Source of the DNA: Prorocentrum cordatum
Taxonomy: Eukaryota
DNA length: 64,000 bases
Assembly (NCBI GenBank): GCA_963575745.1
Contig: CAUYUJ010000162.1
Span: forward strand, 1 to 64,000
Reading direction: 5' to 3'
Made by a program: the position numbers and the translations under genes
Part shown: one piece after another, positions 3,083 through 57,708 of the stretch
Layout of the letters: each line of letters begins with the position of its first letter
Numbering within the stretch: position 1 is the first letter of the stretch
Notes under the pieces: model-generated
Told to the model about the DNA's origin: nothing
What the model saw: the letters and a program-made list of their open reading frames with translations, nothing else
Database searches by the model: none

Positions 3083-3138
3083 AGCGCTGCGCCAGCCGCC
3101 CCGTTCGGGCCCCCGCCCTGCCCGGAGGAGGGCCCCGT

Positions 3139-3157
3139 GTAGCCGCTTTGGTCCAAG
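3139..3157 (+). promoter_or_regulatory. Relict dinoflagellate spliced-leader-like motif
   Basis: gtagccgctttggtccaag versus DinoSL gtagccattttggctcaag (15/19), ~87 bp upstream of ATG 3244. Confidence 0.55.
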
Positions 3158-7740: not shown

Positions 7741-9131
7741 CAGGCCTCCCAATCTATCCGTCCTGGACCTGGCCCCGCCCGGCAGGGTGTTCTTTGAGCG
7801 ACGGGTGCCCTCAGCCCACGGGCGCTCGCGGGTCCCTCTCCTCCTCCTCCTCCTCCTCCTCCTCCTCCTCCTCTCCTCTCCCTCCTCCTCCCTCCTCCCC
7901 CTCCTCCCTCCTCCTCCCTCCTCTCCTCCTCCCCTCCTCCTCCTCCCTCCTCCTCCTCCCGCCTCCTCCTCCTCCTCCTCCTCGTCGTCCTCCTCCTCGT
8001 CGTCTTCCTCCTCCTCCTCCTCGTCCTCCTCCTCCTCCTCCTCCTCGTCCTCCTCCTCCTCCTCCTCCAACTCCTCTCCCTCCTCCCTGCTCGCGCTCTC
8101 CTCGTCGCGTGAGCCCGCCTGAGATATCCAGGAACCGTGCTTTGTGATGTGGCAGGCTCGTGCCGTGACCACTGGCGCGCGCTGGTCTCTGACACCGCGT
8201 GGCGTCGGCCAACCTTGCACGATCGCAACTTCCCGGCAGCGTGTACAGTCAACCCGGATGGTGAGGATGCGTGGTAAGGATGTCAGGGCCTTGGGGGGCC
8301 ATGCTGACGGTTTTCGAAAAAGGTTGGACAGTCAAAGTCACAAAGGACTGGCCGAGGGTGAAGGATGCAAGGACAGCCTTGGAATGGGAAGGATGGGCCG
8401 AAGGGCCTTCGAAGGGGAAGGATGCAGGATGGGCCGAAGGGGAAGGATGGGCAGAGGGGGAAGGATGCGAGGGCAGCCTTCGAAAATTGCACGACCCTGC
8501 GATGCGGGTGGATTGTATCCAGATCGCCCAGCTTCGCACACAACGCCCCGCGATGCGCGGCGCGAGGCGATCTTCGATCTTCGCGCCCTCGCGCCCTATA
8601 GCGCCGCCCCACCCTGGAGAAGGGCGCCTCTCCATCCCTGGCCGCGGTGCGCGGTTACCTTCGCGCCCCTGGGGGAGGGCCTGGGTGTATCGCTCGATCG
8701 CTCGGCCGCTTCGGAGCGCCGGCGGCGTTCAGGCCTGACTCCCGCGTTGGGGACACCGCCTCGTCGACACGACACGAACCTGGAGCCCGCTCTGTTCTTC
8801 GCGAGAGCGCCAAGGACCGGCCGCCCCCCGCCCTGGTCACGTCGCGGTTCGTGCGGGCACCGTCTGGGAATCGGCCATGCGATCACCCAAAAAGCCCGCC
8901 CCATGCGCGCGCGAGGAGCGAAGCACGCCGAATGGGACATCGCAACTGGACCGCAGCGCTTGAAATTCGTACGCTCGTCCCCCTCCTCCTCCTCCTCTTT
9001 TCCTCCTCCTTTTCCTCCTCCTCCTCCTCCTCCTCCTCCTCCTCCCCCTCCTCCTCCTCCTCCTCCCCCCCCCCTGGTCACGTCGCGGTTCGTGCTGGCA
9101 CAGTCTGGGCCTCGGCCGCCCCCCTGAGCAC

Positions 9132-9336
9132 TCCCGCCCAGAGAATCCCCGTAGCAAGAATTTCTGCTACGTAACAGAATTTCTGCTACAAGCTTAGATT
9201 GTAATAGAATTTTTGCGACGGTAGCTGAATTTCTGCTACCGGTCACGATTGTAGCAGAATTTATGTTACGTAGCAGAATTTCTGCTACAGATCTCCATTG
9301 CAGCAAAAATTCTGCTACGTTGCAGAATTTCTGATA
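9132..9336. repeat. Left TIR and subterminal array of palindromic GTAGCAGAAWTTCTGCTAC
   Basis: About eight degenerate copies of the 19-mer palindrome. Confidence 0.9.
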
Positions 9337-9394
9337 CGCGCGGCTACTCTGTCGTGGCACAGGACCGACCAAGTGGCATTAGCCAGGTGAAAAG

Positions 9395-9415
9395 ATTAGG
9401 CCAAAATGGCAACGG
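9395..9415 (-). promoter_or_regulatory. Relict spliced-leader-like motif pointing out through the left TIR
   Basis: attaggccaaaatggcaacgg versus reverse-complement DinoSL cttgagccaaaatggctacgg (17/21). Confidence 0.6.
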
Positions 9416-9624
9416 GCTGGGGGTGAAACGGGGAGAGCGGGGAGGGAGTCGTACAAGTGGTTCAGTGTCCTACTCTGGTTCCCTGGTTCAGTGCCTACCG
9501 CCTCCTCCTCCTCCTCCTCCTCCTCTTCCTCTTTTTCCTCCTCCTCCTCCTCCTCTTACATCTCGTCCACATCCTACATATTTGCGTTGGCAGAAGTGGC
9601 AGGAGCCATCATATCGATTATTTC

Positions 9625-11441
9625 TCAGTTGCGGCGCAAACGGATCTGTAGCACCAACAAGAAATTTATCAACACCTTATGGCTCACAATCGAAAGGCTG
9701 GAACCAACCATGCACCCTTGTGCTGACCGTATCATCGTCCCTACGAAATCTTCAAATTCAAAGCACCATATCGATTTGGGATTCAAGCGCCGAGCGTGCA
9801 CAGCATGTGCGTTTTCACAACGATTGCGTAGATCAACCTTGTAAGAGACACCGAGTATTGAGCGAGCCAATTATAATGCACCATGAATCTGTCGCAGCTG
9901 CTTACCATTTCCAGCGCCTGAGGGCGAGGGGTAAAATGACCATTGGATTTGCACGTGTCGAATATTGAGCATAACGAATGAAAACATGCCAGGCGGTGCT
10001 CGTCCCGTGAAGAACCTCGAGGAGGAGGAGGAGGAGGAGGAGGAGGAGGGGGGGGAGGAGGAGGAGGAGGAGGAGGAAGAGAATGAGGAGGGGCGCCTGT
10101 GTTGAACTCGAAACATACTCATTTTTAGCATATTCAACTGGTTCCTCAACTCTTGAATGTCGTACTCTATCAATATATGTTGCCACGCTATTTTCGGAGA
10201 TTCTTCTGGCGTTCCTTCGAATGGCCCATCAAACACGAGTTCCCACAACACTGCGCCCAGAAACCACTGAACAACGCCAAGGTGCCCTGTGCGCATTAAA
10301 TCCCCAGGGCAACTGAATATAGAAAACCCCCTCAACCTCTGTATTGGGCGATTGGTCACTGGCAGTAGCACCCCAATGCCATCGGGGGCGAGGTTGCGTT
10401 TCCACGCTGCGTCGCAAGACAGGTCTGCGAGCGAAAACTGCGCCCCCTGAGCCCGACTGATGGGGCCCAACCAACAAGGCTGATTACTTGCAAAATGAGG
10501 TAGATCCAATTCGTTAGCGAAGAATTCCAAATCCCCTGCAACAACCCACACCACAAGCCTGACCTGTCCATTGCAGGTAGGTGTTCCAGCTACCTGTTCC
10601 TGTGGCGAACCTTCTGGCCACCTGATGTGTTTGTGGTCCTTGTGAGGATGAACGCCGCCCCAGCAAGCGTTGGAATCATGCGTGTAAGACTCCCACATCG
10701 CACGAGCTGCGTCCGATTCCTCGCCATGTGTCCTCACTCCTTTGGGCAACACAAACCCTGGAAATATGTTTGCGTCGAACGCTGAAGACAACAAGCTTTT
10801 TACCGACACAACCAATAATGCATTCTGGTTCCTTTTAGTGCACACTCCGCCGTCTCCATGAAGAATGCAAGGGTGCGTGGTGCCCATCCAACCATCAATC
10901 GCAGTGATGTCAGCCATCAACTGGAATTTTGGATCAGCGGGGTCAACAGATTCCCAAAATGCTCGTGGATTCTCACCAAGCATTTCATTCAGTTGGAGCG
11001 GGAAGTGGCGAAAAAGAGATTCCAACCTTTCAGGCAATCCCAACGCAGATAGACTCATATCCACAAGGTTATCGTATTTATCATGTGCAGGTACTTCAAT
11101 GCGTAGAGGTGTCGGTAATGTGACATCGCGGCAAAAGCTCCGAATACGATCTCTCCAAAGGTGTTGCCTGGGCACAGACAATTCGAACCAAGTTGAGATA
11201 ACAATCTGAGCCCCCGACGTCGCGCACCAGCCTTTTCAGCGCAGCTACCGAGCCATTCCACGTTGGGCGCGCTGCGAAGCCCCCATCCGGAAAAAAAAGA
11301 CAATAACGCATCAACGGACTCACATCGACTCTCATCTGAAACATTTTGGCCTGGACTGCTGGACTCGAAACCGGCAGTGGCCAGGCGCTGATGAGAACCA
11401 CCTCTGCCCGTCAGCGCATGAAAAATGATGCCGTCATTCAT
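9625..11441 (-). pseudogene. Decayed CMC-superfamily (CACTA/Mirage/Chapaev- or Plavaka-like) DDE transposase
   Basis: Ordered motifs ILHGDGG (D1), VAGDLEFF (D2), PCWLG (degenerate CxxC), DLMRTGHLG (degenerate DxxH), NPKSIWCFEFEDFVG (E; compare CACTA GPxxxxWMYPFER); frameshift near 11170; microsatellite at ~10019-10092; TGA at 9625-9627. Confidence 0.75.
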
Positions 11442-12185
11442 CGGAATTTCGCAAAACAAGGTGCACTGTTAAGCCACAGCAGGCCACGGAGGAGGACAGG
11501 AGGGAGGTACGGTCGATCGGCTTGCATGGTTGAAGCTGTCTCATTGACGCGTCCACATTCCGGGCGCGACGGAGCGGGGGAGGGAATGCACCCCCTCCTC
11601 CTGCTCTTCTCCTCCTCCTCCTCATCCTCCCCCCCTCCTCCTCCTCATCCTTATCCTCCTCCTCGTGCCCAGGCTCATGCGCAGACTTACTCATGCCCAG
11701 ACTCACTCATACACAGACCTATTCATGCCCAGACTTACTCATGATGATACTGATTCATACCAAGACGGACTCATACTCAGACTCGTTCCCATGCGCATTG
11801 ATATACAGACTTAAGCATACCCAGACCTACTCATATTCAGAGCCTCGCATTGTCTGGTTTACTCAACACACCGCAGACTATTGGGCAGCATATCGTGTCC
11901 GTATACGTATGACATCACATGGTGTGTTAGTGATGCTCAATATCATGCAATTTTGAATTCTCACCGTAGCAAGTTTGGTTTAATGTGCTTGTATAGTCCA
12001 TGTCCGTAACCATCCTGACTCCAACCATCTGCGCGCGCATGGGAAATACATGCCTTTCATGTTGTTGTTTGTCTCGAAACTCTGCGCTGCGAAACTCTCA
12101 GCACGACGGGTCATCCTCACGTGCTTGAAGACACACAATCGCTGCTTGTATGAATCGGTAGATTCAGTATCTCCATTATCTCCAA

Positions 12186-13463
12186 TCACATGTGTAAACA
12201 CAGTATCTCCAGTATCATGTGTAGAATACAGCATTGTGTCATGAAGCATTTGGCCTGCTGGATCTCCGTCGTGGCCTCTGAGTTCCACTTGGTGAATTGC
12301 TTCAATATGCTCTTAGCCTCGGCACCGTCGATGCTGGTGTCAGCTGCTGTCTGTTTCAGCGCGTGCCTGATCTTCTCCCCGCCGGCGTAAGTCACCTGGA
12401 CTTTCTGGAGGGGGGCCCTGGAGACAGACGTGACCTTGCAGCGCAACTTCACCTTGAGGAGAGCTGTCACGCTGGCTCCGATCTGGCGAGAAGCGTTCTT
12501 GATCGAGGCCCCCAGCTTCTGCGCGTCGGTTTTCTCCGCCTTCGGCGCGTCGTCGGGATCGGCGGCGTCCTCGACGGCGGCCTGCTCGGCAGCGGCGGGC
12601 CTCTTCATCTCCCCCACGTCTGCGATGGGGCCTGCTGAACCAGACGAGGACATCCGCGCGTCGAAGCCGGCAATGGCCTTGTTCCAATCACCCTCGTCGG
12701 CCACCATCGACCTCGGAACGAGGTTGCACAAATCCGATCAAGGTTTAACAACCTCCAAGAGTCATGAGAAAATCATGAGACCAGATGTTGTTAAACCTTG
12801 TTTGGTTTTGTATAACATTACGTCATGTTCTGTAGTGCCTGTTCTAATATTGAAATATGAAATTATACTTGGGTAAGACACTAAACATGGTTCAAGTACG
12901 ACCTGCTGCCACTCGCAATCTGCCTCCTCTTCTCGCCGACATCCTCCTCCTCGATCACCTTGACGTACTGAGGCGTGCCCTGCTTGTCCTTGGTCTCCTT
13001 GTACTTGCCCATCGCGATGAACTGCGCTGTCTCCAGCGCGCCGTGGATCTGCTCGAGCTCGCCCTTGTACAGAGGCCGCGCAATCTTGCGCTTGTCGCGG
13101 TACTGCTCGATCTCATCACGCACCGAAATCAAATGCTGCTGCCATGCTGAGCTCCCAGGCGACTTGAGAAACTCAACCAACGTTTTCTTTGTTCTCCTCC
13201 TCAGGCCGTGTTGACCCGAGCTCCTCGAGCGAGTCCCAAGCCTCCTTGACTGTCATCGACGCTGAACCTCGAGCTGCCGACAAGCGCTGCCAAACTGCTT
13301 GAAGGTCTTTAGGGCTGAAGAACTCTGCGAGAACTGTTTTATCTGGCACCGTGGTCTTGTTGGCCTCAACGTGTTTAGTGAAGCGAGCAATCTTGTCATC
13401 CAGCAACCTCGATGCCTCCTTCTTTTCAGATAGCGTCAAACCCTTGGACCCTTTGGGCGGCAT
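12186..13463 (-). pseudogene. Transposon cargo gene B, unknown helical protein with one intron and one frameshift
   Basis: ATG 13463 (MPPKGSKGLTLSEKK); frameshift near 13175-13200; GT-AG intron 12712-12902 joins ...IASGSR to SMVADEGDW... in frame. Confidence 0.7.
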
Positions 13464-13521
13464 CGAATCAAATAGAATATGCGAAGAGAGAATGGTACAC
13501 TGACTAGAACGCCCCCGAGGC

Positions 13522-13542
13522 CTTGAGCCAACTTTGCTATGG
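13522..13542 (-). promoter_or_regulatory. Relict spliced-leader-like motif upstream of gene B
   Basis: cttgagccaactttgctatgg versus cttgagccaaaatggctacgg (17/21), ~59 bp from the ATG. Confidence 0.75.
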
Positions 13543-14108
13543 GAGGGAAGTGATAATCGAAAACCTTTGACTTCCAACGCAGGGATGCAATGGAGATACG
13601 CTTCCTCGAGAGACAGCACCGACTGGCTCTGAGCGCGGGCGTGGCGCCCGTGCTTCCTCACCTGTGCTTCCTCCTCCTCCCCCCCCCCCCCCCCCCCCCC
13701 CCCCTCCCCCCCTTCATCGTCGCCCCCCCCCCCCCATCCTTCTTCTCCACCTAAGCGGAGGAGGGGGGGGGGGAGGAGGGGGGTGAGGAGGAGGAGGACG
13801 AGGAATCATATTCTTGCGAGCCTATTGGGTTACTCGTGGGGCCTCATTGAATCTTGCTGGGTGTCTATTGTGGGCTTATCGGGGGTCTCCTTTGGCCTCT
13901 GCGGGTCGTTCGGGGGGCCTTTCTCCATTAATGTTGCAAGTGTTACGCTGTTAAGTGTGTTGGTATGTGTTATTGCTTGTTATGTGTTATTGCATGTTAC
14001 CGTTTTTTTGTTTTAAAAGAATATATGTTTTTCTCATGTGCAAGCCTGACGCGGGAACGGGAACGGCACAGGCCTGGCGCGGGCTGGAACGTGCGTCTGA
14101 TCGTGGAA

Positions 14109-15155
14109 TCACGAATCGCTGAACAGACCACTGCCATCGCTGAGTGCCATCTCCTCATGGCCGCCCTCGGCCTCGGAGGCCTCTCCGATTGAAAAGAAAG
14201 CCAGCACATCTTCTGGAGGTGTGGAACTGCTGGTCGCAGCAGGACCCTTGGAGCTCGCTGCGACTGGCTTCCTAGAGGTGTTGTCCTGCTTGAGCTTCTT
14301 TGGCGGCGGCACAGTACTCTTTTTACAACTAGAGATGAGCTAGGAACGGATTTCCACCAACGATTCCTTAGTGTTTTTTTTTTGTTGTAGCAATTTCCCA
14401 CAACTGCGGGCAAACATCTTTGAACTTTTCAGTTTGCTTCTCTGTTACCTCGACGATGAGGCGCCACTTCCAATCGCACCCAGAATGCTGCAAAATATCT
14501 GATTTGTGGGTCGCGTGGTAGAACTTGATGCCTCCGAACCATTTCGTAGATGCCTTCGGAACGTCGGTAGCGTTCGCGGCTGGCTTTTTAGCCATAACCA
14601 TTTTCTTGACGGCGCCTTTCTGTGCAGGAAAGGGTGTCTCAGCAACTGCATCTGATTCATCAGACAAGTCGTCGGCACCATCGACTGAAATACCCATGTG
14701 GTCCATGAACTCATTGAATGACTCTTTCTCCTCACCCCAAGACGGTCCACACACGTAGACATCTTCTTATTGTTTTTCAAAGAACGAGCGTGCGCGAAAA
14801 TAACCATCGCCAGTCGCACAACTGCATCTGCAAACCGATCCGTCGAGGACGCAATCGTATTCAGCTCCCGAGAAGTCTTCTGCAAGATCTGTTTCAAGGC
14901 TGCTGTCAAATTCGTAGGCTATCTAAGGCCAGTTCCCAAATCGAATAACGTTTTTATCAATGTTGCATTATGAACCATACCAGACCCGTCCACTTGTTCA
15001 GATCTAGGCTTTTTGTTGTAGCTGTCGAAACCAAATACAGCTGCATCTTCAGCAACCCCAGCAATATATGACGTCCAAGCCTGTTCAATCTGATCTCGTG
15101 GAATGTCCGGGCAGGGGCCAACATGCCACGGTTGAATCTGATTTCGTTTTGACAT
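14109..15155 (-). pseudogene. Transposon cargo gene C, unknown protein, decayed
   Basis: ATG 15155 (MSKRNQIQPWHVGPCPD); in-frame TAG 14919-14921; frameshifts near 14740 and 14380; protein-like segments such as IKFYHATHKSDIL...KWRLIVEVTEKQ; TGA at 14109. Confidence 0.6.
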
Positions 15156-15245
15156 GATAAGGAAGGTATATGGTCGAGCACCAATACAATCTAGAGGGTT
15201 GCACACAGAGGTACCGTACTGAACAAGAAACCAAAAAGCGAGTGG

Positions 15246-15266
15246 CTTCAGCCCGAATGACTACGC
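15246..15266 (-). promoter_or_regulatory. Relict spliced-leader-like motif upstream of gene C
   Basis: cttcagcccgaatgactacgc versus cttgagccaaaatggctacgg (16/21), ~91 bp from the ATG. Confidence 0.65.
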
Positions 15267-15646
15267 GACGGAAGAGAATGAGGGGGGGATTCAAAGTAGT
15301 CGACCGAAAGATTGCCCCGCAGGGGTCGGGGAGCGCACGGCCAGATCTTGGGCCCCAGGACCCCGCGGGCAGCGTAGCTAGGCTCCCTGTCCACTTCCCT
15401 CCCTTGACCTCCTCCCCATATTTCAGTTTCCCCTTCCTCCCTCCATCCCCTTTTCCCCCCTTCCCCCCTATCATCCTTAGTTTCCCCCTCCTGCTGCTGC
15501 TGCTGTTCCTCTTTTTCCTATCCTCCGCCTCCTCCTCCTCCTCCTCCTCCTTTTCCTCATCATCATCATCATTCCTCCACCTCCCCTCCTCCTACTCTCC
15601 TACTCCTCCTCCTCCTCGTCCTCCTCCTCCTCCTCCTCTCCCTCCT

Positions 15647-15799
15647 GTAGTAGTAGTAGTAGTAGTAAAAGTAGTCGTAGTCGTAGTAGTCGTAGTAGTC
15701 GTAGTAGTCGTAGTAGTAGTAGTAGTAGTAGTAGTAGTCGTAGTAGTAGTAGTAGTAGCAGTTGTAGTAGTAGTAGTAGCAGTAGTCGTAGTAGTAGTC

Positions 15800-15857
<58 letters not shown>

Positions 15858-15883
15858 CAGTAGAAGTCGCAGTAGTAGTAGTG

Positions 15884-15917
<34 letters not shown>

Positions 15918-15919
15918 AG

Positions 15920-15952
<33 letters not shown>

Positions 15953-16156
15953 ATAGTAGTAGTAGTAGTCGTAGTAGTAATGGGGGGTGTAAGGACTTTG
16001 CACGGGGTTGCGGGGCCAATGGGGGGCTACATATTGCCATATGGTTTGTGGGTGTGCACGCGCATTATCCCCCACCCCCTTCCGCACACATGGCGTGTGT
16101 GTGTGTGTGCGTGAGAGAGAGAGAGAGAGAGTGTGTGTGTGTGTGTGTGTGTGTGC

Positions 16157-16241
<85 letters not shown>

Positions 16242-16245
16242 TGTG
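15647..16245. repeat. Microsatellites (GTA)n, (GA)n, (GT)n and (GCGT)n
   Basis: Direct inspection. Confidence 0.95.
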
Positions 16246-16483
16246 TTCGGGGGGGGGGGGGGCGGGGGGGGGAGGGGGGGGGATAGGGGGCGTGTTTTAA
16301 GGGAGTAGGATGCACGGGAATCTTTATATCAGGGACAGTATGGCGCGGGGGTGGTGGTGGGGACCTCTACTGGCCTCTGAATATGGTCTACGCGTTGCAC
16401 ATGTTAAGGTGCGTGCCTCGACTGGGGGACACATCATGCGGTGCGGGGCATCGTGCGCCCCATGCACATGGGCCCGCAGCACT

Positions 16484-16701
16484 TGTAGCAGAAATTCTGC
16501 TACAACACCACGGCGCTGTGCGCTGTAGCAGAAACTCTGCTACTGTAGCAGAATTTTTGCTACAATCACCATCGGTAGCAGAAATTCTGCTACGTAGCAC
16601 AAATTCTGCTACCGTAGCACAGTTTTTGCTACAATCTGGGCTTGTAGCAGAAATTCTGCTATGTAGCAAAAATTTTCGAGACGAGGATTCTCAGGGCGGG
16701 A
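16484..16701. repeat. Right TIR and subterminal array of palindromic GTAGCAGAAWTTCTGCTAC
   Basis: Inverted counterpart of 9132-9336. Confidence 0.9.
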
Positions 16702-16750
16702 ACGGCGCCGGCGCGAATCGTGCCGTGGCTGGGCCTCTCCCCCCTCACCG

Positions 16751-16972
16751 TAAGTCGGGCCTGTCCCCCTACAGGGAGATTTTCGACGAAAAAATAATAA
16801 ACACAAAAAAAATACCCCCCAAATGCACCAAAGAGGCAAAAAAATACTCAAAAATAATCCCCAGACATTTTTTTGACTACTGTATGGCTATTTTTTGGGT
16901 ATTTTTGTATTTTTCATTTTTCGTCGAAAATCCCCTCTGAAAATCTCCCTGTAGGGGGACAGGCCCGACTTA
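16751..16972. mobile_element. MITE-like element with TIR (TA)AGTCGGGCCTGTCCCCCTACAGGGAGATTTTC
   Basis: Perfect ~34-bp inverted termini bounded by TA; relatives at 18367-18510, 45981-46135 and 46143-46301, partial copies near 17168, 41609, 42243 and 53181. Confidence 0.85.
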
Positions 16973-19900
16973 ACCCTCACCCCCCCGCAATCGCGCGCCC
17001 CCGCATCGCCAGGGCGCCCAGGGAACAGAAAGCACGCTCTCCGAGTGCACCGCCCAGCCTGCGCGAATCGTGACGTGACTTGGCCTCCCCCCCCTTCTCC
17101 CCCCCTGCAGTCGTGCGCCCGTAGCGCCGGGGCGCCGAGGGAACGACGAGCACGCCATCCTACTGCACCGGGCATGTCCCCCCACAGGCGGATGTTGGAG
17201 GAGAAGTGACAAAACAAAACAAATAAAACGTACTCAAACGTTGTCAAACAGATAGTCGGGAAATCGCCCCCTGGCCGTTGGGTCACGACTTTGGGCTATA
17301 CTCCTCCCGTGGAGCGACCTGCTGCCGACATGTCGCGAGGAACACCCGAGGAGAAGGGGCGGCGGGGCCTCCTCGGGGCACGGCAGGCCCCACGGCCACG
17401 GCGAGGCTCTAAACCCACCCCCACCCACTCGGACGCCCGAGGTGGGCACGGAACAAGCGGGTACAGTGCTCGTTTTTTGTTTGGGGGGGGGGGCCGCGGG
17501 GTCGAACCATGGGCACATCATCCTTACAGTCGGGGCGTTGACCTAAGGAACCCAAAATAAGGAACGAGGCCCCTTTTTCCCATAAGTGAAACCTCGATTT
17601 CCCATGGAAAACCCAACGCAAACTGTAAAACAAACAAGGAACACCAAGCCCCTCGCCAACGAGAAGGGTTCCTTCTTCAGCGCCCCGACTGTATGTGCCA
17701 GAGGAGGCGGCAGCCCTAGCTGCCTCCTCTTTAGCCCGCACACGCAGGCTCAAAGCACTCGTGCCATCAGTCCGGACGAGGCCTGTCGCCGTTAGTTGTA
17801 GCGTGACCTCGTCTGGGAGCGGAAGCGCGGCAGCGTAGCACATACTCGCGACTCCACGTCTGGAGGTCGTCGTCACCTCAGCGTACTGATGGCGCTGAGG
17901 GAAGTGGCCATCGCAAATCCGTCTCAAGCAATGCGCAATGGGTACAGTGCTCAACAGCAAACGTTGTCCCAAACCAGCAGCGGCCGCTGTTGGGCAGGCG
18001 GCCTTCTGCCTCAAATGGGCACTGGCCGCGGCGGCGCGGACGGCGAGTCATGTTCAAAATGGGCAGGAACTGCTGTTGGGCAGTGTCCGAACCCAAAATC
18101 TCGGAGGAAGGGCCCCCCGAAGCCAGGAGCCGTCGGTGGCAACTCCACGGGGGGCGTCCGTACCATCTGGTCAGCTTTTGCGAATCGACGCCAATCGACG
18201 CTAATTCGAGGCTAGTCGACACTTAGATCGACGCTACCTAGACGCTGATCGGCGCTAAATCCACGCTCATCGACGGCACATCGATGCTCATCGACGCTAT
18301 CTCCTTGACTCCCAAACGCTCATCGACGCTAGTCGACGCGAGAAACGGAATCCAGAGGGTATACTTAGGTCGGGCGTGCCCCCCTACAGGCGGATTCTGG
18401 GCGAAAAATGAAACAGATCCAAAACATGTTCAAACAATTAAGGGATGTCGTCCCCGCACTATTCTTTTTCTATTTTAGAATCGTCCTCCTCTAGAGGGAC
18501 ACGTCCGACTGAAGGGCATGACAAACTCCCCTGACTTTTGCAGCCGGAAGCGGGCCCCTTCCGAGTCCGAAGCGCTCCAACGCAAGGCCCGGGGGGCTGT
18601 CCTGGGGCCCGGCTGGGGGCCCGGCTGGGGGCCCGGCGGGAACAGTCTCGGTCGGGGATCTGCGGACCCGGGTGGATCCAGACCCGGACCAGTCAGGCCT
18701 CGCAGAGTCTTGCAGCCTCCTGCAGGCCCTGCACCCGAGCCCGGGTCCATGCGGAGGTCCCTGCAACATTCGGGCAGGATCCTGCACCAAGCCCGGGTCA
18801 ATGCGAAGGGTCCTGCAAGATCCTGCGCCCAGGCCCGGGTCAGTGCGACCCTGGCCCTGCAGGATCCTGCAAGATCCTGCAAGATAACTCGGCGGTGAAC
18901 AAACCTCCCTTTAGTAAACCTCCCTTTAGTGAACACGGCCTAGGACCGAAACCGACGGACCTGGGCCCGCAAAACGGACGGCCGCGACGCCCTCTTGCGA
19001 ACCGAAAACGGCCAATTCGCTAATCGACGTGTCAGGGTAGGAGGTCCACAAACCTCCGACAGACCCGGGTCAACGCCAAGGATCCTGCAACATCCTGCAG
19101 GGTCCTGCACCCCCGTTAAACGGGTCAGTGCGGCCCTGGCCCTGCAGGGTCCTGCATCTGATCGGGCGCTCTGGCGGACGCCGTTTGCACCGACCTCCGT
19201 CTCGAGGCTCCCGACTCGGGCCCCCACTGGCCATCGCTCGGACGTACATTCCCTGTGTTTGTTTCGGTTTCGTGCGTGTGTTTTTTTTCTCGCCAAATGA
19301 TCAAGGATGCTCCTCGATGGTCCTCGCCGAAGAAAAAATGCACACGTCCGAGCGATGCCAAGCCCGGGGTCCGCCCCCGGGGAGCCCAAAGGACTCCGTG
19401 CCCCGCGCTGTCTTTGGCTTTGCCTGCCGCTCGCGCCGCCCTCGCCCCCTCGACCCCCGGGAGCTCGACGGGGGGGACCGGTTGCAGGAGGGGCTTGCTC
19501 CGAAAACGGCTCCGGGCAGGCCGCGCGGCCATGGTGCCGCCGACGCCGCGGGCACGGCGCGCAACCCTCCGGGGAGGCAGAGATGCGATGCGATGCGATG
19601 CGACCACCGTTGCGGACAGCGTCCGGGCCGAGAGCAGACCAGGTGGGTGGGGATCTGAAAGTGTCTGGACTTCTGCAGTGCGAGACATGTACAAAGTTAG
19701 GAGGGGAGGGGGAGGAGCAGGAAAAGGAAGGGACAGAGTCCGCGCGGGACGAGGACACCAGGGAAAAGCGGCCGTCCAGACGGCGCGGGATGAGATGGGA
19801 AGGTACGCTGCAGCAGTAATGAGGCGCAAGCGGGGCTGCGGCAGTAGGCCCGCGCTGCGGGGAATTGCACTGAGTGGGTTTTGCACGCAGAGTTTTGGTT

Positions 19901-28955: not shown

Positions 28956-30520
28956 GGGGCGTCCTTGGACGTCTGGGGTCTCCTGGGGCCTCTTGAGGGG
29001 CCTCCTGGGGGCCTCCTGGCGGCCTCTTGGGGCGGAAGGCTCGAGCTTGCGGTTCGTGGTCCCCCTCTGGGCCCCCTCTTGGGCCCGTCTTGGGGCCCTC
29101 TTGGGCCATCTTGGGCGCCTCTTGGGCCGTCTTGGGGCCCTCTTGGGCTGTCCTGGGGCCCTCTTGGAAGCTTCTTGGGCCGTCTTGGGGCGGTCTTGGG
29201 CGCCTCTTGGGCCGTCCTGTAACGTCGGAAAGCCCAAAAGACAACTTTGTTGAAAATGTACGTTTTACGAAGGGAATGGGCCAACTTTTGCGTCTAGGGG
29301 CCCTCTTGGGACGCATGTTGGAGGCTTCTTGGGGGCCTCTTGGGGGCGTCCTTGGACGTCTGGGGTCTCCTGGGGCCTCTTGAGGGGCCTCCTGGGGGCC
29401 TCCTGGCGGCCTCTTGGGGCGGAAGGCTCGAGCTTGCGGTTCGTGGTCCCCCTCTGGGCCCCCTCTTGGGCCCGTCTTGGGGCCCTCTTGGGCCATCTTG
29501 GGCGCCTCTTGGGCCGTCTTGGGGCCCTCTTGGGCTGTCCTGGGGCCCTCTTGGAAGCTTCTTGGGCCGTCTTGGGGCGGTCTTGGGCGCCTCTTGGGCC
29601 GTCCTGTAACGTCGGAAAGCCCAAAAGACAACTTTGTTGAAAATGTACGTTTTACGAGGGGAATGGGCCAATTTTTGCATCTAGGGGCCCTCTTGGGACG
29701 CATGTTGGAGGCTTCTTGGGGCCTCTTGGGGGCGTCCTTGGACGTCTGGGGTCTCCTGGGGCCTCTTGAGGGGCCTCCTGGGGGCCTCCTGGCGGCCTCT
29801 TGGGGCGGAAGGCTCGAGCTTGCGGTTCGTGGTCCCCCTCTGGGCCCCCTCTTGGGCCCGTCTTGGGGCCCTCTTGGGCCATCTTGGGCGCCTCTTGGGC
29901 CGTCTTGGGGCCCTCTTGGGCTGTCCTGGGGCCCTCTGGGAAGCTTCTTGGGCCGTCTTGGGGCGGTCTTGGGCGCCTCTTGGGCCGTCCTGTAACGTCG
30001 GAAAGCCCAAAAGGCGACTTTGTTAAAAATGTACGTTTTACAAAGGGAATGGGCCAATTCTTGCGTCTAGGGGCCCTCTTGGGACGCATGTTGGAGGCTT
30101 CTTGGAGCCTCTTGGGGGCGTCCTTGGACGTCTGGGGTCTCCTGGGGCCTCTTGAGGGGCCTCCTGGGGGCCTCCTGGCGGCCTCTTGGGGCGGAAGGCT
30201 CGAGCTTGCGGTTCGTGGTCCCCCTCTGGGCCCCCTCTTGGGCCCGTCTTGGGGCCCTCTTGGGCCATCTTGGGCGCCTCTTGGGCCGTCTTGGGGCCCT
30301 CTTGGGCTGTCCTGGGGCACTCTTGGGAGCTTCTTGGGCCGTCTTGGGGCGGTCTTGGGCGCCTCTTGGGCCGTCCTGTAACGTCGGAAAGCCCAAAAGG
30401 CAACTTTGTGAAAAATGTACGTTTTACGAAGGGAATGGGCAAATTTTTGCGTCTAGGGGCCCTCTTGGGACGCATGTTGGAGGCTTCTTGGGGCCTCTTG
30501 GGGGCGTCCTTGGACGTCTG
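28956..30520. repeat. Four near-identical 386-387 bp tandem units built on TCTTGGGGCC
   Basis: gggcgtccttggacgtctgg recurs at about 28957, 29344, 29730, 30116 and 30502. Confidence 0.95.
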
Positions 30521-32749: not shown

Positions 32750-33800
32750 TGACGACAGTTACAGGTTTTGGATGACCTGCTCGGATTACCAACATGATCT
32801 GCGGGCCCCATAGGGAGGGGGCTCCCGCCTGAGACTTCCTCGCAGTTCACTCACAGACGAGGCTCCCGCCTGAGACTTCCTCCATATTCAGGCTTGAGGA
32901 GCCCAAAAGTGACGACAGTTACAGGGTTCCGATGACCCGCTCGGATTACCAACATGATCTGCGGGCCCCATAGGGAGGGGGCTCCCGCCTGAGACTTCCT
33001 CACAATTCACTCAAGACGAGGCTCCCGCCTGAGACTTCCTCCAAATTCAGGCTTGACGAGCCCAAAAGTGACGACAGTTACAGGGTTCCGATGACCCGCT
33101 CGGATTACCAACATGATCTGCGGGCCCCATAGGGAGGGGGCTCCCGCCTGAGACTTCCTCGCATTCACTCACAGACGAGGCTCCCGCCTGAGACTTCCTC
33201 CATATTCAGGCTTGAGGAGCCCAAAAGTGACGACAGTTACAGGGTTCCGATGACCCGCTCGGATTACCAACATGATCTGCGGGCCCCATAGGGAGGGGGC
33301 TCCCGCCTGAGACTTCTTCACAATTCACTCAAAGACGAGGCTCCCGCCTGAGACTTCCTCCAAATTCAGGCTTGACGAGCCCAAAAGTGACGACAGTTAC
33401 AGGGTTCCGATGACCCGCTCGGATTACCAACATGATCTGCGGGCCCCATAGGGAGGGGGCTCCCGCTTGAGCCTTCCTCAGAATTCACTCACAGACGAGG
33501 CTCCCGCCTGAGACTTCCTCCATATTCAGGCTTGAGGAACCCAAAAGTGACGACAGTTACAGGGTTCCGATGACCCGCTCGGATTACCAACATGATCTGC
33601 GGGCCCCATAGGGAGGGAGCTCCCGCCTGAGACTTCCTCCCAATTCACTCACAGACGAGGCTCCCGCCTGAGACTTCCTCCATTTTCAGGCCTGGGGAGC
33701 CCAAAAGTGACGACAGTTACAGGGTTCCGATGACCCGCTCGGATTACCAACATGATCTGCGGGCCCCATAGGGAGGGGGCTCCCGCCTGAGACTTCCTCA
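32750..33800. repeat. ~6.5 copies of a 159-160 bp tandem unit
   Basis: tgacgacagttacagg at about 32750, 32910, 33069, 33228, 33388, 33548 and 33708; each unit carries ggctcccgcctgagacttcctc twice. Confidence 0.95.
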
Positions 33801-36800
33801 CACTTTACTCAACGATGATGAGGATGAAGATGATGAGTGGTGGTGAAGATGAGTGGTGAAGAGGATGATGATTGATTGTGGGTGGTGGTGGCGATGATGA
33901 TGTTTGAATGAGGATGATGTCATCCGCATGATGAGGCAGAAGAGGAGAGGGGGTGGGGTGAGTGTTCCTGCGCGGGGTGTGCAGAGAAAACAAGAGCCCC
34001 ACTTTGGATGTGGGGAAAAAATCTCGCCGTCAGGCTGCCCCTCGCACGCCGAGCGGCCGGCAGCGAGCGCCGGCCGAGCCGCGGCAGCCGGGGCCGCCGC
34101 GCCACCGTCAGAGCCTTCGCCGCCGCCGCAGCGCCCGCGCTGCACGGGCCCTCTGGGGCACTGCGCCCGCCAAGCCCCCGGCGGCAGTGGGGGGCAGTCG
34201 CGCGCCGGGATCGCCCTCAGCGGGCGCATGGGGCGCTCCTTTTGGTGCCCCGTGGCCGCCTCCACGCGGCCCCGGTGCCGCGGGCGGCCTGGGGGCCCCG
34301 CGCGCGGAGGCAGGCGTGGAACTGCGCCGCCCCGACTCGGGCGGGGCCCGTCCGCAGGGGCCGCCGCCGGCCTGGCGGCTGTCTGTGGGCACTGGTCCTG
34401 CTCCTGCTCGCGGCGCAGCAGAAGGTCTGCGGCGGCGGCGGCCGGCTGCAAGCTGCGGCGCGCCTGGCAGCCACCTGCAAACGCTGCTCCCACTCCTGCT
34501 GCGCCTGCCGCGCCCGTGGCGCGTGCCAAGCGCGCGGCGGCAATGCCAGCGTCTCGAGGGCGCCAGTCGAAGCCGCTGCCCCGGAGTCACAGGTCCCGCG
34601 CTGAGCGGGACCAGTATGCCGAAGCGGGTCGTTGAAAACGTAGAGTCGGCTGGCCTTGGGGACGTACGATGGCGCACTGGTGTTCCACACGAAGCGAGGA
34701 CACAAAGACGTCGACAGCCCAGCTGCCTGTTCCGTTGGGGACTCTGGGGCTTTCTGGGCAACCATGGCCGCCAGGACTGATCAGGCTACGCGGGTCCGAC
34801 GCGCCACAGGAGAACTCAACGAAAACCCATGTTGCAGCCCCAATGACTTGAGTTAGAATAGGTACGGATGGCCCCCCTTCTCCTCTTCTTCCTCCTCCCT
34901 CCTCCTCCTCATCCTCCTCATCCTCCTCCTCCTATTCCTATTCCTCCTCCTCGGGCACGGCACATCGACGCCTCAGCGTCACGAACCAACTCCAGGGAAG
35001 TCTCCGCAAGAACAATCGACGGATTATCAGTAGGCCCGATTGGCGAGCCATTAAGCCAGACCGCGGCATGATGAAGCCCAGAAGTAAACTGCATTAAGCG
35101 GGTTATGCTGGAGTAGGCTGGTTATCGACCACGGGTGTACCAACGTCGATGCAGCATGATGCAGAATGCAACCTTCCAGAAGCTTCATCCAAGCGCCGAA
35201 ACGCCTCGACAATCGATATATGTACACTCCGCCTCCCGCGCAGGTGAACGGGCCGCTGCCTGGCATAATAACAACTGCATACCTATAAACTTTCGACGGT
35301 CCGCGCGGATTTCTTGGATCGCGCTCGACCCGCTCGCGCGCGGCGCGCGCCAGGGAAGGGCTGGGGGCGCCGTCAGGTGGGCCCAGCGCCGATCCAACAC
35401 ATCCGCGCGGACATGGTTGTGGCGCTTCCTCTTCTCCAAGGGAAATCGAATGATCAAATCAAAATCCGCCACCGCGGAAGACAGGGATGGCGCGGGCCAG
35501 GGAGACACCCACATCGGGTGATGCTGGACATGCTCCTTCCCTAAGGTGCTCCCAGGATTCCCAAGGAGGCACCCGCGGTCTCGAGAGAACCCCCCCAGGG
35601 GGCCCCTGGGTTCGGTGGCAACTCACTGCAGCCTCCCATGCCATCTTGTTGGCCCTTGTGAATCGACGCTACTCGACACTATTCGAAGCTCATCGGCGCT
35701 GAATCGGCGTTACCTCATCGACTGCCGGCCGCTCATCGACACTGCAGACAGAATGGAGAGGATGCACAAGGCTCCCGCGATTCGTCACTGAACCAAGGAT
35801 TCCAACATGGAGCGAAAAACTGAGGGGGGCACCTTGGGCCAAGGGCACCTTTCTTGGGGATCCCAAGACCGTGCGGTGACAAATCGCGCGGTGACCTTGG
35901 AACCCCAAGAGACCTCACCGCACGGTCCGTCACCACACGGTTTTGGGACCCTGCAGGCTCCAGTCGCCCGAGACATCCTCGGAGAACGACCCGCGTCCCA
36001 AAACCGCGTGGCGACCCCGAATCCCCACCGACTCACCACACGGTGTGGTCACCACCCCGTTTGGGGGCCCCCGAAGTAACTTTCGCAACCCCCGACCACG
36101 GTTCCGGGACCACCTCGAGGGCATCACGCCGGGGGGCCACGTGGCGGCCGCAGAGGCCGCGGGCGGCGGCAGTTGTTTCGGAGATAGATCCACCGTGGGT
36201 GGAGAGACCGATATCGCGTTCGAGACGGAGATCGCGTTTGACAGAAAGGACCAACAAATACCGATACCGCTACTGCGCGGACCTCTCCAGAGGTGCGTCC
36301 CGACCAGAAATGCAAGGCGAATCCAGCCGTGGCGACGAAGGCCTCCCAAGAAGGCCCAGAAACATGGAAACGAGGCCAGAGAAGCGGAATGGGTACTCTT
36401 TCCCTCCCATTGGGACCAAACTACGCGGAAACATCCGTGAGGCCTCGCTCGGTGATTTGAGGCCCAAATGTAGCTGGACACACGTCAGGTTCACGTGGGA
36501 TGCGCGTCGAACTGAACCACGAAGGGACTTTGGATGCCCCCCCGTAGGGGGTAACTAATTCTTGACGCTTCGCTACAGACACCATGCTCGTTTGGCGGCC
36601 TTCAGCCGCCCTCCCTGGCACGTGCACTTCCTGCCTTTGGACCCAAGTGTGTGTACCAGCAACGCCGTCTGCATTGCAACACCCGCACGTGTCGCGTGTA
36701 GCCATAGTGGCCCCGGCCCCGCTGTAGCTGGTTCCACCTTGCCAGGCTCGCCCCGGCCCACGGTTCTGTGACCGACGCAAAGATGGCTTCGCCTCGTCAC

Positions 36801-54430: not shown

Positions 54431-54638
54431 GACTGATGTATTGGGGGGGCTCACCAGCCCCCTGATACATCAGTCGGTGACGTCGGTGACTGATGAAAGG
54501 GAGGGGCATATGGCGATTCCTAAAATCGCGCCCCTCTCTCTCAACGGTCACAGGGTTCCCGCCCCTCCGATAGAACGGTCGGGGACGTCGGTGACTGATG
54601 TATCAGGGGGGCTGGCCAGCCCCTCCGATACATCAGTC
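54431..54638. repeat. Two GACTGATGTA...TACATCAGTC hairpins upstream of the DNMT
   Basis: 54431-54475 and ~54593-54638, each enclosing gggggg-ct...ag-ccccc. Confidence 0.75.
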
Positions 54639-54695
54639 GGATGGGATTGCGCCCGCCTGTAACCCCGATTGCATCCTCCAGTTGGTGTCCTTATG

Positions 54696-54718
54696 TCCTT
54701 AGCCTGTTTTGGCTTAAG
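54696..54718 (+). promoter_or_regulatory. Relict spliced-leader-like motif upstream of the DNMT
   Basis: tccttagcctgttttggcttaag versus tccgtagcc-attttggctcaag; ends 18 bp before ATG 54737. Confidence 0.75.
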
Positions 54719-54736
54719 CTCGCATTGCGAGCTAGG

Positions 54737-57210: not shown

Positions 57211-57626
57211 ACTTTGCGCTTCTTTGGGGTGCCGTCTTGAAGCCCTCTTGAAACCCACATAGGCCTCTCTTGAGCCCTCTTAAGCCCCCCGTTGAAGGTC
57301 TCTCCTGGCCCGTTTACTGAATCATGAGCCTCGAAGGCGCCCTTGAAAGACTCCTTTGCCACTTGAAGCCGTATTCGGGCGATCTAGGGCCTCTTAAGCC
57401 ATCTCGGGCTATCTTGAACGGTCTTCGGGGTCATCTTGACCTATCTAGGGCCCTCCTGGGGCCATCTTGAGCCACAACATGAAGCCGTGCCCGTCCGGGC
57501 CCAGGGGGAGGGGGCAGGGGGAGATAGAGGTACCTCCCCCCGAAGAGGAAGTAGGGGATTTAACATGATGAGCTCCTGAAGCCACCTCCGCTAAGCGGGC
57601 TGGTGGGATTCGCCTTCTGGAACATA

Positions 57627-57643
57627 TAGCCATTGTGGCTCAA
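57627..57643 (+). promoter_or_regulatory. Relict spliced-leader-like motif upstream of the large ORF
   Basis: tagccattgtggctcaa versus DinoSL tagccattttggctcaa (16/17), ~65 bp before ATG 57709. Confidence 0.8.
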
Positions 57644-57708
57644 ACTTGCAAGGTTTGGCGTGTACTCTCAGTCGTCTTGTTAAGTATTCACTTGCCTGTG
57701 CCTTGTAG

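What the first reader, a model, noticed from the sequence alone, without database searches (positions are those of the whole stretch)
9132..16701. Multigene CMC/CACTA-like DNA transposon in which every gene has its own genomic spliced-leader relic
Seen: long inverted termini, three co-oriented minus-strand genes, and DinoSL-like motifs at 15246-15266 (gene C), 13522-13542 (gene B) and more weakly 11468-11489 (transposase), all on the coding strand 27-91 bp from the starts. Established: relict SLs mark mRNA-recycled genes in dinoflagellates. Inference: this cut-and-paste element was assembled from retro-copied trans-spliced mRNAs, or it hard-wires SL-like leaders as expression signals. The two cargo proteins are unrecognised and may be family-specific accessory factors.
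Basis: partly seen in the sequence, partly recalled or inferred. Interest (0 to 1): 0.85.

Follow-up and report, generated by a model that had tools for sequence, protein, structure and literature searches.

The report
Decayed RAG1-like transposon in a dinoflagellate
This is a dead 7.6-kb cut-and-paste DNA transposon in a dinoflagellate-type genome: its transposase belongs to a very large unnamed family with the fold of the RAG1/Transib recombinase, it has a conserved partner gene, and two of its three genes carry leftover spliced-leader tags showing they once passed through an mRNA copy.

Summary
The roughly 205-bp inverted termini (9132-9340 and 16485-16701) are real and occur nowhere else in the window. 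Three co-oriented minus-strand genes lie inside them, and all three are broken.

DinoSL relics before gene B (17 of 21) and gene C (16 of 21) are far beyond chance. The window holds 6 hits of at least 16/21 against about 0.1 expected. The "relic" before the transposase is chance-level: 145 equally good sites in the window against 172 expected.

The transposase matches no Pfam family. It belongs to a huge unnamed family, with 5215 representative clusters. A confident model (pLDDT 96) matches the RAG1 core and Transib (Z 14-16).

The window copy has lost conserved residues, has frameshifts, and has a microsatellite in place of about 35 residues.

Gene B is homologous to the ORF just upstream of a distant family member on an independent contig, so it is probably a native partner gene. 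Gene C has no detectable relative.

Two family proteins start with the translated spliced leader. Relics mark over 20% of Symbiodinium genes, so they are not special in themselves. Other copies could not be examined because no genome is held.

The parts
9132..9340 (.). Left terminal inverted repeat. It starts TCCCGCCCAGAGAATCC (or CACT at 9129) and carries at least 6 copies of the 19-nt palindrome GTAGCAGAATTTCTGCTAC.
   Evidence: As single-stranded DNA it folds at -50.8 kcal/mol, z -9.1.
16485..16701 (.). Right terminal inverted repeat. It ends GGATTCTCAGGGCGGGA and carries 7 copies of the palindrome.
9625..11441 (-). Gene A, a transposase pseudogene. Pieces: N-terminal 11238-11441 (ATG 11441), core 10102-11235, and C-terminal 9786-10010 and 9628-9870. 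It has at least 2 frame changes, C280 changed to G, H339 changed to R, and H506 lost at a break.
10019..10091 (.). (GAG)n microsatellite standing where about 35 residues of the transposase should be.
11468..11489 (-). It is chance-level here, but could be an eroded relic judging by its position relative to P0038.
   Evidence: edit distance 7; 145 observed against 172 expected.
11674..11842 (.). 16-bp satellite (CTCATGCCCAGACTTA)n between genes A and B.
12186..13463 (-). Gene B, the companion ORF family. Pieces: B1 13215-13463, B2 12903-13213 (frame shifted by 1), B3 12189-12711. Stop codon at 12186-12188.
   Evidence: Homology to L001 ORF P0156.
12712..12902 (-). 191-nt AT-rich GT..AG intron of gene B (GC 0.37). 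AGGTCG is repeated at both borders.
   Evidence: and reading.
13522..13542 (-). DinoSL relic before gene B: CCATAGCAAAGTTGGCTCAAG, 17/21.
14109..15155 (-). Gene C, an orphan pseudogene. ATG at 15155. It has a short AT-rich intron at about 14923-14978, an in-frame TAA at 14767-14769, and a frame change at an A10 run near 14375.
   Evidence: No relatives found.
15246..15266 (-). DinoSL relic before gene C: GCGTAGTCATTCGGGCTGAAG, 16/21.
9395..9415 (-). Orphan DinoSL relic, CCGTTGCCATTTTGGCCTAAT (17/21), between the transposase 3' end and the left TIR. No ORF follows it.
11964..12024 (+). Two SL-like sites on the opposite strand (16/21 and 15/21), starting 40 nt apart. No convincing gene follows them.
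15380..16282 (.). Non-coding block of microsatellites ((TCC)n, (GTA)n 333 bp, (GTGC)n, G runs) between gene C's leader and the right TIR.

Best explanation
The region 9132-16701 is an old, inactivated copy of a cut-and-paste DNA transposon in a dinoflagellate-type nuclear genome.

Its transposase (gene A) belongs to a very large, unnamed DDE family. The whole core of that family has the RAG1/Transib architecture and the CMCT signature: D, D, C(2)C, D(2)H, H(3)H, E.

By inference, the intact enzyme binds the roughly 205-bp termini, cuts at the ends and reinserts the element. Those termini are arrays of a 19-nt palindrome.

Gene B is a native second gene of this family, since a homologue sits directly upstream of a distant relative's transposase. 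By analogy with En/Spm TNPA, I infer that it is the accessory protein that reads the subterminal palindromes.

Gene C is an orphan of unknown standing. It may be native, or it may be captured.

The DinoSL relics 58 and 90 nt before B and C are genuine. They show that these gene copies, or their ancestors, were re-copied from trans-spliced mRNA into DNA. This is the ordinary dinoflagellate retrogene route, which tends to insert near the parent gene. The relics were then carried within the element.

This copy cannot make transposase. It has frameshifts, a microsatellite in place of about 35 residues, and two lost invariant residues.
For: SHOWN
- TIRs and palindromes are unique to the two ends.
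- The transposase has 7 near relatives at 35-47% identity.
- The profile finds 5215 representative clusters at E<=1e-3 and 563 at <=1e-30.
- D155, D258, C277, C280, D336, H339, K500, H502, H506 and E525 are each kept in 81-83 of 83 homologues.
- The model of P0002 has pLDDT 96.1.
- Structural matches: RAG1 core Z 15.6-16.4 with about 440 of 566 residues aligned; BbRAGL Z 15.0; HzTransib Z 14.4; P element Z 10.2; unrelated chains at or below 7.8. Foldseek gives E 1e-5.
- Motif spacing (103, 19, 3..., 4, 19) mirrors mouse RAG1 D600/D708/C727/C730/H937/H942/E962 (PMC4914335, passages).
- Decay of the window copy is shown.
- L001 has a co-oriented ORF, P0156, just upstream of its transposase. P0156 matches B2 (E 7e-8) and B1 (E 1e-6) collinearly.
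- 4 of the 6 strong SL hits fall in the element, which is 12% of the window (binomial P 0.0024).
- P0004 and P0038 begin M-x-VAILAQ, which is the spliced leader translated. P0038 has a second HFGS relic-like stretch.
- Literature on the frequency, position (-50 to -100) and introns of retrogenes comes from PMC5585692 (passages).

INFERRED
- The cutting mechanism.
- The role of gene B.
- The route by which the relics arose.
Against: - No second copy of the element could be examined. No genome is held and there is nothing else in the window. Mobility, TSD and the linkage of C are therefore unproven.
- The TSD is ambiguous: AC/AC at the 9132/16701 borders, or GAG/GCG if the ends are 9129/16704.
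- The termini are not CACTA..TAGTG, and they are not RSS-like heptamers.
- The B link rests on one contig at 25-38% identity over 55-59 residues. B3 shows no significant match.
- B's GC3 (about 0.8) differs from that of A and C (0.4-0.6), as a captured host gene's would.
- B and C have introns, so they are not simple processed copies.
- Searches with B3 (longer proteins) and C3 (near lengths) found no relatives.
- No RNA evidence was obtained. The RNA contigs laid on the region hit only the 16-bp satellite.
- No sequence-level link to any named transposase family exists.
Confidence: 0.65

Rival explanations
1. Nested-insertion reading. Only gene A and the TIRs are the transposon. Genes B and C, the orphan relic at 9395-9415 and the plus-strand SL-like sites are ordinary host retrocopies that landed in a dead element. 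On this reading the relics say nothing about the transposon.
For: - Over 20% of Symbiodinium genes carry relics (PMC5585692).
- The element is enriched for SL relics, including ones with no gene behind them.
- B's GC3 of about 0.8 is host-like and unlike A and C.
- C has no relatives.
- An A-rich run lies about 100 nt after C's stop.
Against: - A B homologue lies in the same position and orientation next to a transposase of only about 27% identity on an independent contig. This is hard to explain by chance insertion.
- No poly(A) remnant or TSD is seen around B.
Confidence: 0.2
2. Hard-wired leader reading. The SL-like leaders are kept by selection as expression signals. They would supply the TTT(T/G) core-promoter motif and an AG trans-splice acceptor for each gene wherever the element lands.
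For: - The relics sit 58 and 90 nt before the ATGs, in the -50 to -100 zone where Song et al. found the best-kept relics and proposed a promoter role (PMC5585692).
- B's relic keeps TTGGCTCAAG exactly.
- Family transcripts or contigs begin with SL peptides.
Against: - There is no comparison across copies, so no evidence of selection.
- The transposase leader in this copy is not significantly SL-like.
- This copy is dead, so its motifs are decaying neutrally.
- L001 shows only 14/21 matches, which is chance-level.
Confidence: 0.12
3. Not a mobile element. On this reading it is a host locus bounded by a palindromic satellite, holding a degenerate copy of a domesticated RAG1-like gene family.
For: - The family is huge and its catalytic residues are kept. 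That would also fit a host recombinase family.
- No TSD or second copy is shown.
Against: - The two repeat arrays are inverted relative to each other, end in the same 17-mer, and bracket the transposase gene exactly.
- Thousands of divergent clusters is the pattern of a selfish family.
Confidence: 0.03

Closest known systems
Transib transposons / RAG1 core, including ProtoRAG (BbRAGL)
   Same: - The whole-core fold matches: RAG1 residues 466-1004, Z 15-16; HzTransib Z 14.4.
- The D, D, E triad is present with C(2)C 19 residues after the second D and H(3)H 19 residues before E, as in RAG1.
- ProtoRAG and TransibSU also carry a second gene.
   Different: - There is no sequence-level match to RAG1 or Transib.
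- The termini are not the CACAGTG/CACAATG type (heptamers recalled).
- No 5-bp TSD is seen.
- The TIRs are about 205 bp long and palindrome-rich, rather than short.
- The partner gene is not a kelch-type RAG2. It looks helical from composition, and this was not modelled.
- The host is a dinoflagellate, whereas known Transibs are mainly from animals. A 2021 survey recovered only 35 (bioRxiv 10.1101/2021.09.26.461848, passages).
En/Spm (CACTA) and the CMC superfamily
   Same: [quoted passage not shown]
- Subterminal repeat arrays lie inside both ends, and there is a second element-encoded protein. The En/Spm TNPA/TNPD comparison is recalled, not tested.
- The left end can be read as CACT.
   Different: - 0 of 75 members hit any Pfam transposase model, CACTA families included.
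- The right end does not read TAGTG.
- A 3-bp TSD is only 2 of 3 matched (GAG/GCG).
- B and the transposase are separate genes, each with its own start, rather than splice variants.
Dinoflagellate retrogenes marked by relict DinoSL (Slamovits & Keeling 2008, recalled; Song et al. 2017, PMC5585692)
   Same: A relic lies on the coding strand 58-90 nt before the ATG. The TTGG/TTTG part is retained. Introns are present, as in many annotated retrogenes.
   Different: Here the tagged genes lie inside a TIR-bounded DNA transposon, and one of them is a conserved transposon gene. My library searches found no paper describing that.

Membership tests
CMCT clade (EnSpm/CACTA, Mirage, Chapaev, Transib, RAG1), as defined in PMC12730594 | [quoted passage not shown] | tested here: met
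   D155, D258, C277xxC280, H502xxxH506 and E525 are each kept in 81-83 of 83 homologues. The window copy itself keeps D, D, C277, H502 and E but has lost C280 and H339, and H506 falls at a break.
CMCT clade | 5'-CA..TG-3' termini and a 2-5 bp TSD. | tested here: inconclusive
   The left end can be read CACT (9129-9132), but the right end reads ..AACG rather than ..AGTG. Candidate TSDs are AC/AC or GAG/GCG. This is a single old copy.
CMC / CACTA (EnSpm) | Sequence membership in EnSpm-type transposase families. | tested here: not met
   0 of 75 members match any transposase Pfam family at E<=1. The window ORFs also have no hit. Repbase profiles were not available.
CMC / CACTA (EnSpm) | CACTA..TAGTG termini with a 3-bp TSD. 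| tested here: inconclusive
   The ends read CACTC at the left and CGTTC (reverse complement) at the right. The flanks are GAG and GCG.
Transib / RAG1 | RAG1-core architecture (DDBD, PreR, RNase H, ZnC2, ZnH2, CTD). | tested here: met
   The model has pLDDT 96.1. RAG1 gives Z 15.6-16.4 with about 440 residues aligned to 466-1004, and HzTransib gives Z 14.4 with 405 aligned. No CMC structure exists to compare, so this does not exclude CMC.
Transib / RAG1 | 5-bp TSD and RSS-like heptamer termini. | tested here: not met
   No matching 5-mers flank either candidate border. The termini read TCCCGCCC or CACTCCC. This is one decayed copy, so the result is weak.
Transib / RAG1 | Detectable sequence similarity to the RAG1 or Transib core. 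| tested here: not met
   Profile searches against PDB sequences found no RAG1 or Transib at E<=10. There is no Pfam RAG1 hit.
Dinoflagellate retrogene (relict DinoSL) | Relict DinoSL within 500 bp upstream on the coding strand. Song et al. require at least a 9-nt exact match. | tested here: met
   Gene B has a 10-nt exact TTGGCTCAAG and matches 17/21. Gene C matches 16/21, but its longest exact run is 5 nt, so it is met by overall match only. Gene A is not met.
Dinoflagellate retrogene (relict DinoSL) | An identifiable parent gene, or a poly(A) remnant. | not testable with these tools
   No genome is held. No clear poly(A) follows B. A short A-rich run at about 14000-14012 follows C.

The most novel reading that the evidence does not exclude
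Dinoflagellates harbour a massively expanded, so far undescribed lineage of RAG1/Transib-like (CMCT) transposons. The lineage has a two-gene core, a helical partner gene plus the transposase, and long palindrome-array termini. Its genes are repeatedly recycled through trans-spliced mRNA, so the element carries genomic spliced-leader relics that double as portable promoter and trans-splice-acceptor modules. That would make it a DNA transposon renewed by retroposition.
Probability: 0.25. Interest if true: 0.8.

Novelty: new variant of a known kind. Interest (0 to 1): 0.6.

Why it matters
Transib is treated as a small, mostly animal superfamily and as the source of RAG1. A family with the full RAG1-core architecture and thousands of divergent clusters in SL-trans-splicing protists would widen the known range of that architecture. 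It would also give new material for studying how RAG-type enzymes and their partner proteins evolved.

DNA transposons of dinoflagellates are poorly described although these genomes are huge.

A transposon gene that bears a spliced-leader relic links two copying routes, cut-and-paste and retroposition. It offers a concrete locus on which to test whether relict leaders act as portable expression signals.

Tried and rejected
- Whole-genome search: no genome is held for this window, so copy number, TSD and linkage could not be tested.
- Reads: X1, probably the source or a close strain, gave short DNA contigs identical to parts of the element at depth 2.5-7.2, which is not interpretable as copy number. 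X2 and X3 (RNA) matched only the 16-bp satellite at 11674-11842. X8 gave nothing. This says nothing about expression either way.
- Metagenome scan: only 2 distant loci.
- Scans of genome contigs and viral contigs: no relatives.
- Searches for B3 (longer proteins) and C3 (near lengths): no hits. This is weak evidence because of the length and word limits.
- Pfam and PDB sequence searches for A, B, C and P0156: nothing significant.
- First AlphaFold run with 11 sequences: pLDDT 47.6, unusable.
- Rfam: no hit in the window.
- The upstream regions of the four SL-like sites share only the purine microsatellite and the SL motif, with no common promoter block.
- The left and right flanks are unrelated apart from generic repeats.
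- The idea that the TIR palindrome derives from the SL: the consensus unit is at chance distance. One variant at 16613-16634 reaches edit distance 5. I treat this as chance.
- The idea that B's intron is a MITE or introner: the AGGTCG repeat at both borders is mostly explained by splice consensus, and the insert has no TIR.
- Earlier-findings look-ups returned nothing.

Full report
WHAT IS THERE

The window is GC-rich (0.49-0.65 in 2-kb steps) and full of microsatellites. No whole genome is held for it.

The finding's borders are real. The arms 9132-9239 and 16594-16701 are 108 nt long and 81% complementary. A second pair, 9251-9318 and 16545-16612, is 68 nt and 88%. Aligned end to end, the two termini correspond over about 205 bp with one 30-bp indel. 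Both begin with TCCCGCCCWGAGAATCC, which has 2 exact hits in the window against 0.03 expected.

The arms are arrays of a 19-nt palindrome, GTAGCAGAATTTCTGCTAC. It occurs at 13 sites (25 strand-matches at up to 3 mismatches, 0 expected). All lie within 9171-9337 or 16485-16662. Nothing from the interior or the termini recurs elsewhere in the 64 kb.

The target-site duplication is undecided:
- With borders at 9132 and 16701, the flanks share AC.
- If the ends are read as CACT (9129) and its degenerate partner (16704), the flanks are GAG and GCG.

GENE A

On the minus strand, an ATG at 11441 opens a reading frame whose N-terminus (MNDGIIFHALTGRGGSHQRL...) aligns with the N-termini of its homologues.

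The gene is in pieces: 11238-11441, 10102-11235, 9786-10010 and 9628-9870. It has at least two frame changes. A (GAG)n microsatellite at 10019-10091 stands where the homologues have about 35 residues.

A word-indexed search found 7 relatives at 35-47% identity. A profile search of 1.84 billion representatives found 5215 clusters at E<=1e-3, 2460 at <=1e-10 and 563 at <=1e-30. Full length is about 600 residues.

None of the window pieces, none of 4 close homologues and none of 75 aligned members matches a Pfam transposase family. Profiles find no RAG1 or Transib among PDB sequences.

In 83 aligned homologues, D155, D258, C277, C280, D336, H339, K500, H502, H506 and E525 (P0002 numbering) are each kept in 81-83 sequences. 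The window copy has G at C280 and R at H339, and loses H506 at a frame break. It is a dead copy.

FOLD

With 11 sequences the model was useless (pLDDT 47.6). With 87 rows it reached pLDDT 96.1 and pTM 0.93.

Foldseek against the PDB puts RAG1 chains first (E 1.1e-5, TM 0.47). HzTransib follows at E 1e-3 and the P element at 0.04.

The Foldseek-independent aligner gives:
- RAG1: Z 15.6, rmsd 5.7, 436 residues aligned to 485-1023.
- BbRAGL: Z 15.0.
- P element: Z 10.2.
- Apo HzTransib: Z 8.7.
- ISCth4: Z 8.4.
- Unrelated helical proteins: at or below 7.8.

The second look raises RAG1 to Z 16.4 (440 aligned, residues 466-1004) and DNA-bound HzTransib to Z 14.4 (405 aligned).

The motif spacing is D-103-D-19-C-3-C ... 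H-4-H-19-E. It mirrors mouse RAG1 D600, D708, C727, C730, H937, H942 and E962 (numbers read in PMC4914335).

[quoted passage not shown] The paper groups them as "CMCT", with CA..TG termini and 2-5 bp TSDs (PMC12730594, passages).

The family therefore belongs to that clade by signature and fold. No CMC structure is solved, so the RAG1/Transib match does not exclude a CMC affinity.

GENES B AND C

Gene B starts at 13463. Its first piece (13215-13463) and second piece (12903-13213) differ by a one-base frame shift. A 191-nt AT-rich GT..AG intron (12712-12902, GC 0.37) joins the second piece in frame to the third (12189-12711).

Gene C starts at 15155. It has a short AT-rich intron (about 14923-14978), an in-frame TAA at 14767-14769 and a frame change at an A10 run.

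Neither gene has a Pfam or PDB match. Searches with B3 (longer proteins) and C3 (near lengths) found nothing.

The metagenome scan returned L001, a 4816-bp contig whose transposase is about 27% identical to family members. Directly upstream on the same strand lies a 370-residue ORF, P0156.
- It matches B2 at 38% over 55 residues (E 7e-8).
- It matches B1 at 25% over 59 residues (E 1e-6).
- The two matches are in the same order, with the same spacing between them.
- B3 shows no significant match.

This is the only independent locus available, but it makes B a conserved companion of the transposase rather than random cargo. B's GC3 (about 0.8 in B2 and B3) is unlike that of A (0.5-0.6) and C (0.4-0.6). 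I cannot explain that difference.

SPLICED-LEADER MOTIFS

I scanned with CCGTAGCCATTTTGGCTCAAG. The sequence was confirmed in PMC5585692.

The window has 6 sites with at least 16/21 matches. 300 shuffled motifs give a mean of 0.10 and none reaches 6. 100 simulated windows give a mean of 0.06.

Four of the six lie in the element, which is 12% of the window (P 0.0024):
- 13522-13542 (-), 17/21, with 58 nt between it and B's ATG.
- 15246-15266 (-), 16/21, with 90 nt between it and C's ATG.
- 9395-9415 (-), 17/21, with no gene behind it.
- 11964-11984 (+), 16/21. A 15/21 site starts 40 nt further on.

With gaps allowed, hits at edit distance 4 or less number 3 against 0.33 expected. Hits at 5 or less number 10 against 1.7.

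That class has 145 members in the window against 172 expected. It is not evidence.

Two of the 155 family proteins (P0004 and P0038) begin M-x-VAILAQ, which is the leader translated in one frame. P0038 continues with HFGS, the leader in another frame, about 7 codons before its true Met. So family mRNAs or gene copies do carry leaders or relics. They also place the family in SL-trans-splicing organisms. The window's weak motif sits at a comparable place, with 26 nt between it and the ATG, and may be an eroded relic. That is conjecture.

HOW UNUSUAL ARE THE RELICS?

Song et al. report the following (PMC5585692, passages):
- Relics lie within 500 bp upstream of over 20% of Symbiodinium genes.
- They are best conserved at -50 to -100.
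- Retrogenes have about as many introns as other genes.
- Retrogenes often insert near the parent gene.

Two tagged genes out of three is therefore not remarkable in itself. What is notable is that the tagged genes lie inside a DNA transposon, and that one of them is native to it. The simplest route is re-copying of the element's own trans-spliced mRNAs into or beside the parent copy. A selected role as portable promoter or acceptor cannot be tested on one dead copy.

PRIOR WORK

Library searches for Transib, CACTA/EnSpm or transposase with TIRs together with dinoflagellate or Symbiodinium terms returned only incidental mentions. The 2024 review of dinoflagellate genomics mentions DNA transposons once and transposases not at all. 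A 2021 survey recovered only 35 Transib transposases. Repbase could not be consulted, so prior description there is possible.

LIMITS

- No RNA evidence was obtained.
- There is no second copy of the element.

VERDICT

This is a real but decayed transposon of a large, unannotated RAG1/Transib-like (CMCT) family with a conserved partner gene. It has genuine spliced-leader relics before two of its three genes. "A relic for every gene" and "assembled from retrocopies" are not established.

Noticed in passing
window 16751-16972: A 222-bp MITE-like element with perfect 34-bp inverted ends (100% complementary), flanked by the direct repeat CCCTCACC. It lies 50 bp outside the right TIR. There is no other copy in the window.
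   Followed up: partly
window 54599-55891 (+) and 54697-54718 (+): An ORF with a C-5 cytosine DNA methyltransferase domain (PF00145, E 1.4e-33). A strong DinoSL relic (edit distance 4) lies near the start of the open frame. This is probably a DNMT retrogene.
   Followed up: partly
window 11674-11842: The 16-bp satellite (CTCATGCCCAGACTTA)n between genes A and B is extremely abundant in other runs. Summed contig depth is 7683 in X1 and 1138 in X2, and it is present in metatranscriptome contigs of X3. It accounts for all of the small-share run hits.
   Followed up: partly
window 3137-3157 (+), 34847-34867 (-), 57624-57644 (+): Further DinoSL-like sites outside the element, at 15/21, 16/21 and 16/21. 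They support a dinoflagellate origin for the window.
   Followed up: no
window 16613-16634 (+): One variant of the TIR palindrome pair (CCGTAGCACAGTTTTTGCTACAA) lies within edit distance 5 of the DinoSL. The consensus palindrome shares CGTAGC..ATTT..GCT with it. This is probably chance, given about 14 repeat units.
   Followed up: partly
window 8821-8876 / 9062-9117 and 16707-16745 / 17057-17095: The host DNA just outside each TIR is itself locally duplicated (89% and 87% identity). The left and right flank repeats resemble each other in inverted orientation by my reading of the sequence; blastn found no such match. The element may sit inside an older repeat.
   Followed up: no
window 29026-30206 and 32786-33765: Identical 23-mers recur at about 386-bp and about 160-bp periods. 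This indicates two tandem arrays downstream of the element.
   Followed up: no
L001 262-350, 2385-2405, 4412-4432 and 125-196: In the distant relative's contig, a hairpin motif (GGGGCC-GAAA-GGCCCC followed by ACATCT) recurs before the B-like ORF, before the transposase and after it. A block of short palindromic repeats (TCTTATAG units) lies near the contig's 5' end and may be a subterminal repeat array.
   Followed up: no
window 13200-13202 and 11979-11980: Contigs of run X1 break exactly at gene B's frame-shift region and at the plus-strand SL-like site. This would fit variation between copies or alleles there.
   Followed up: no
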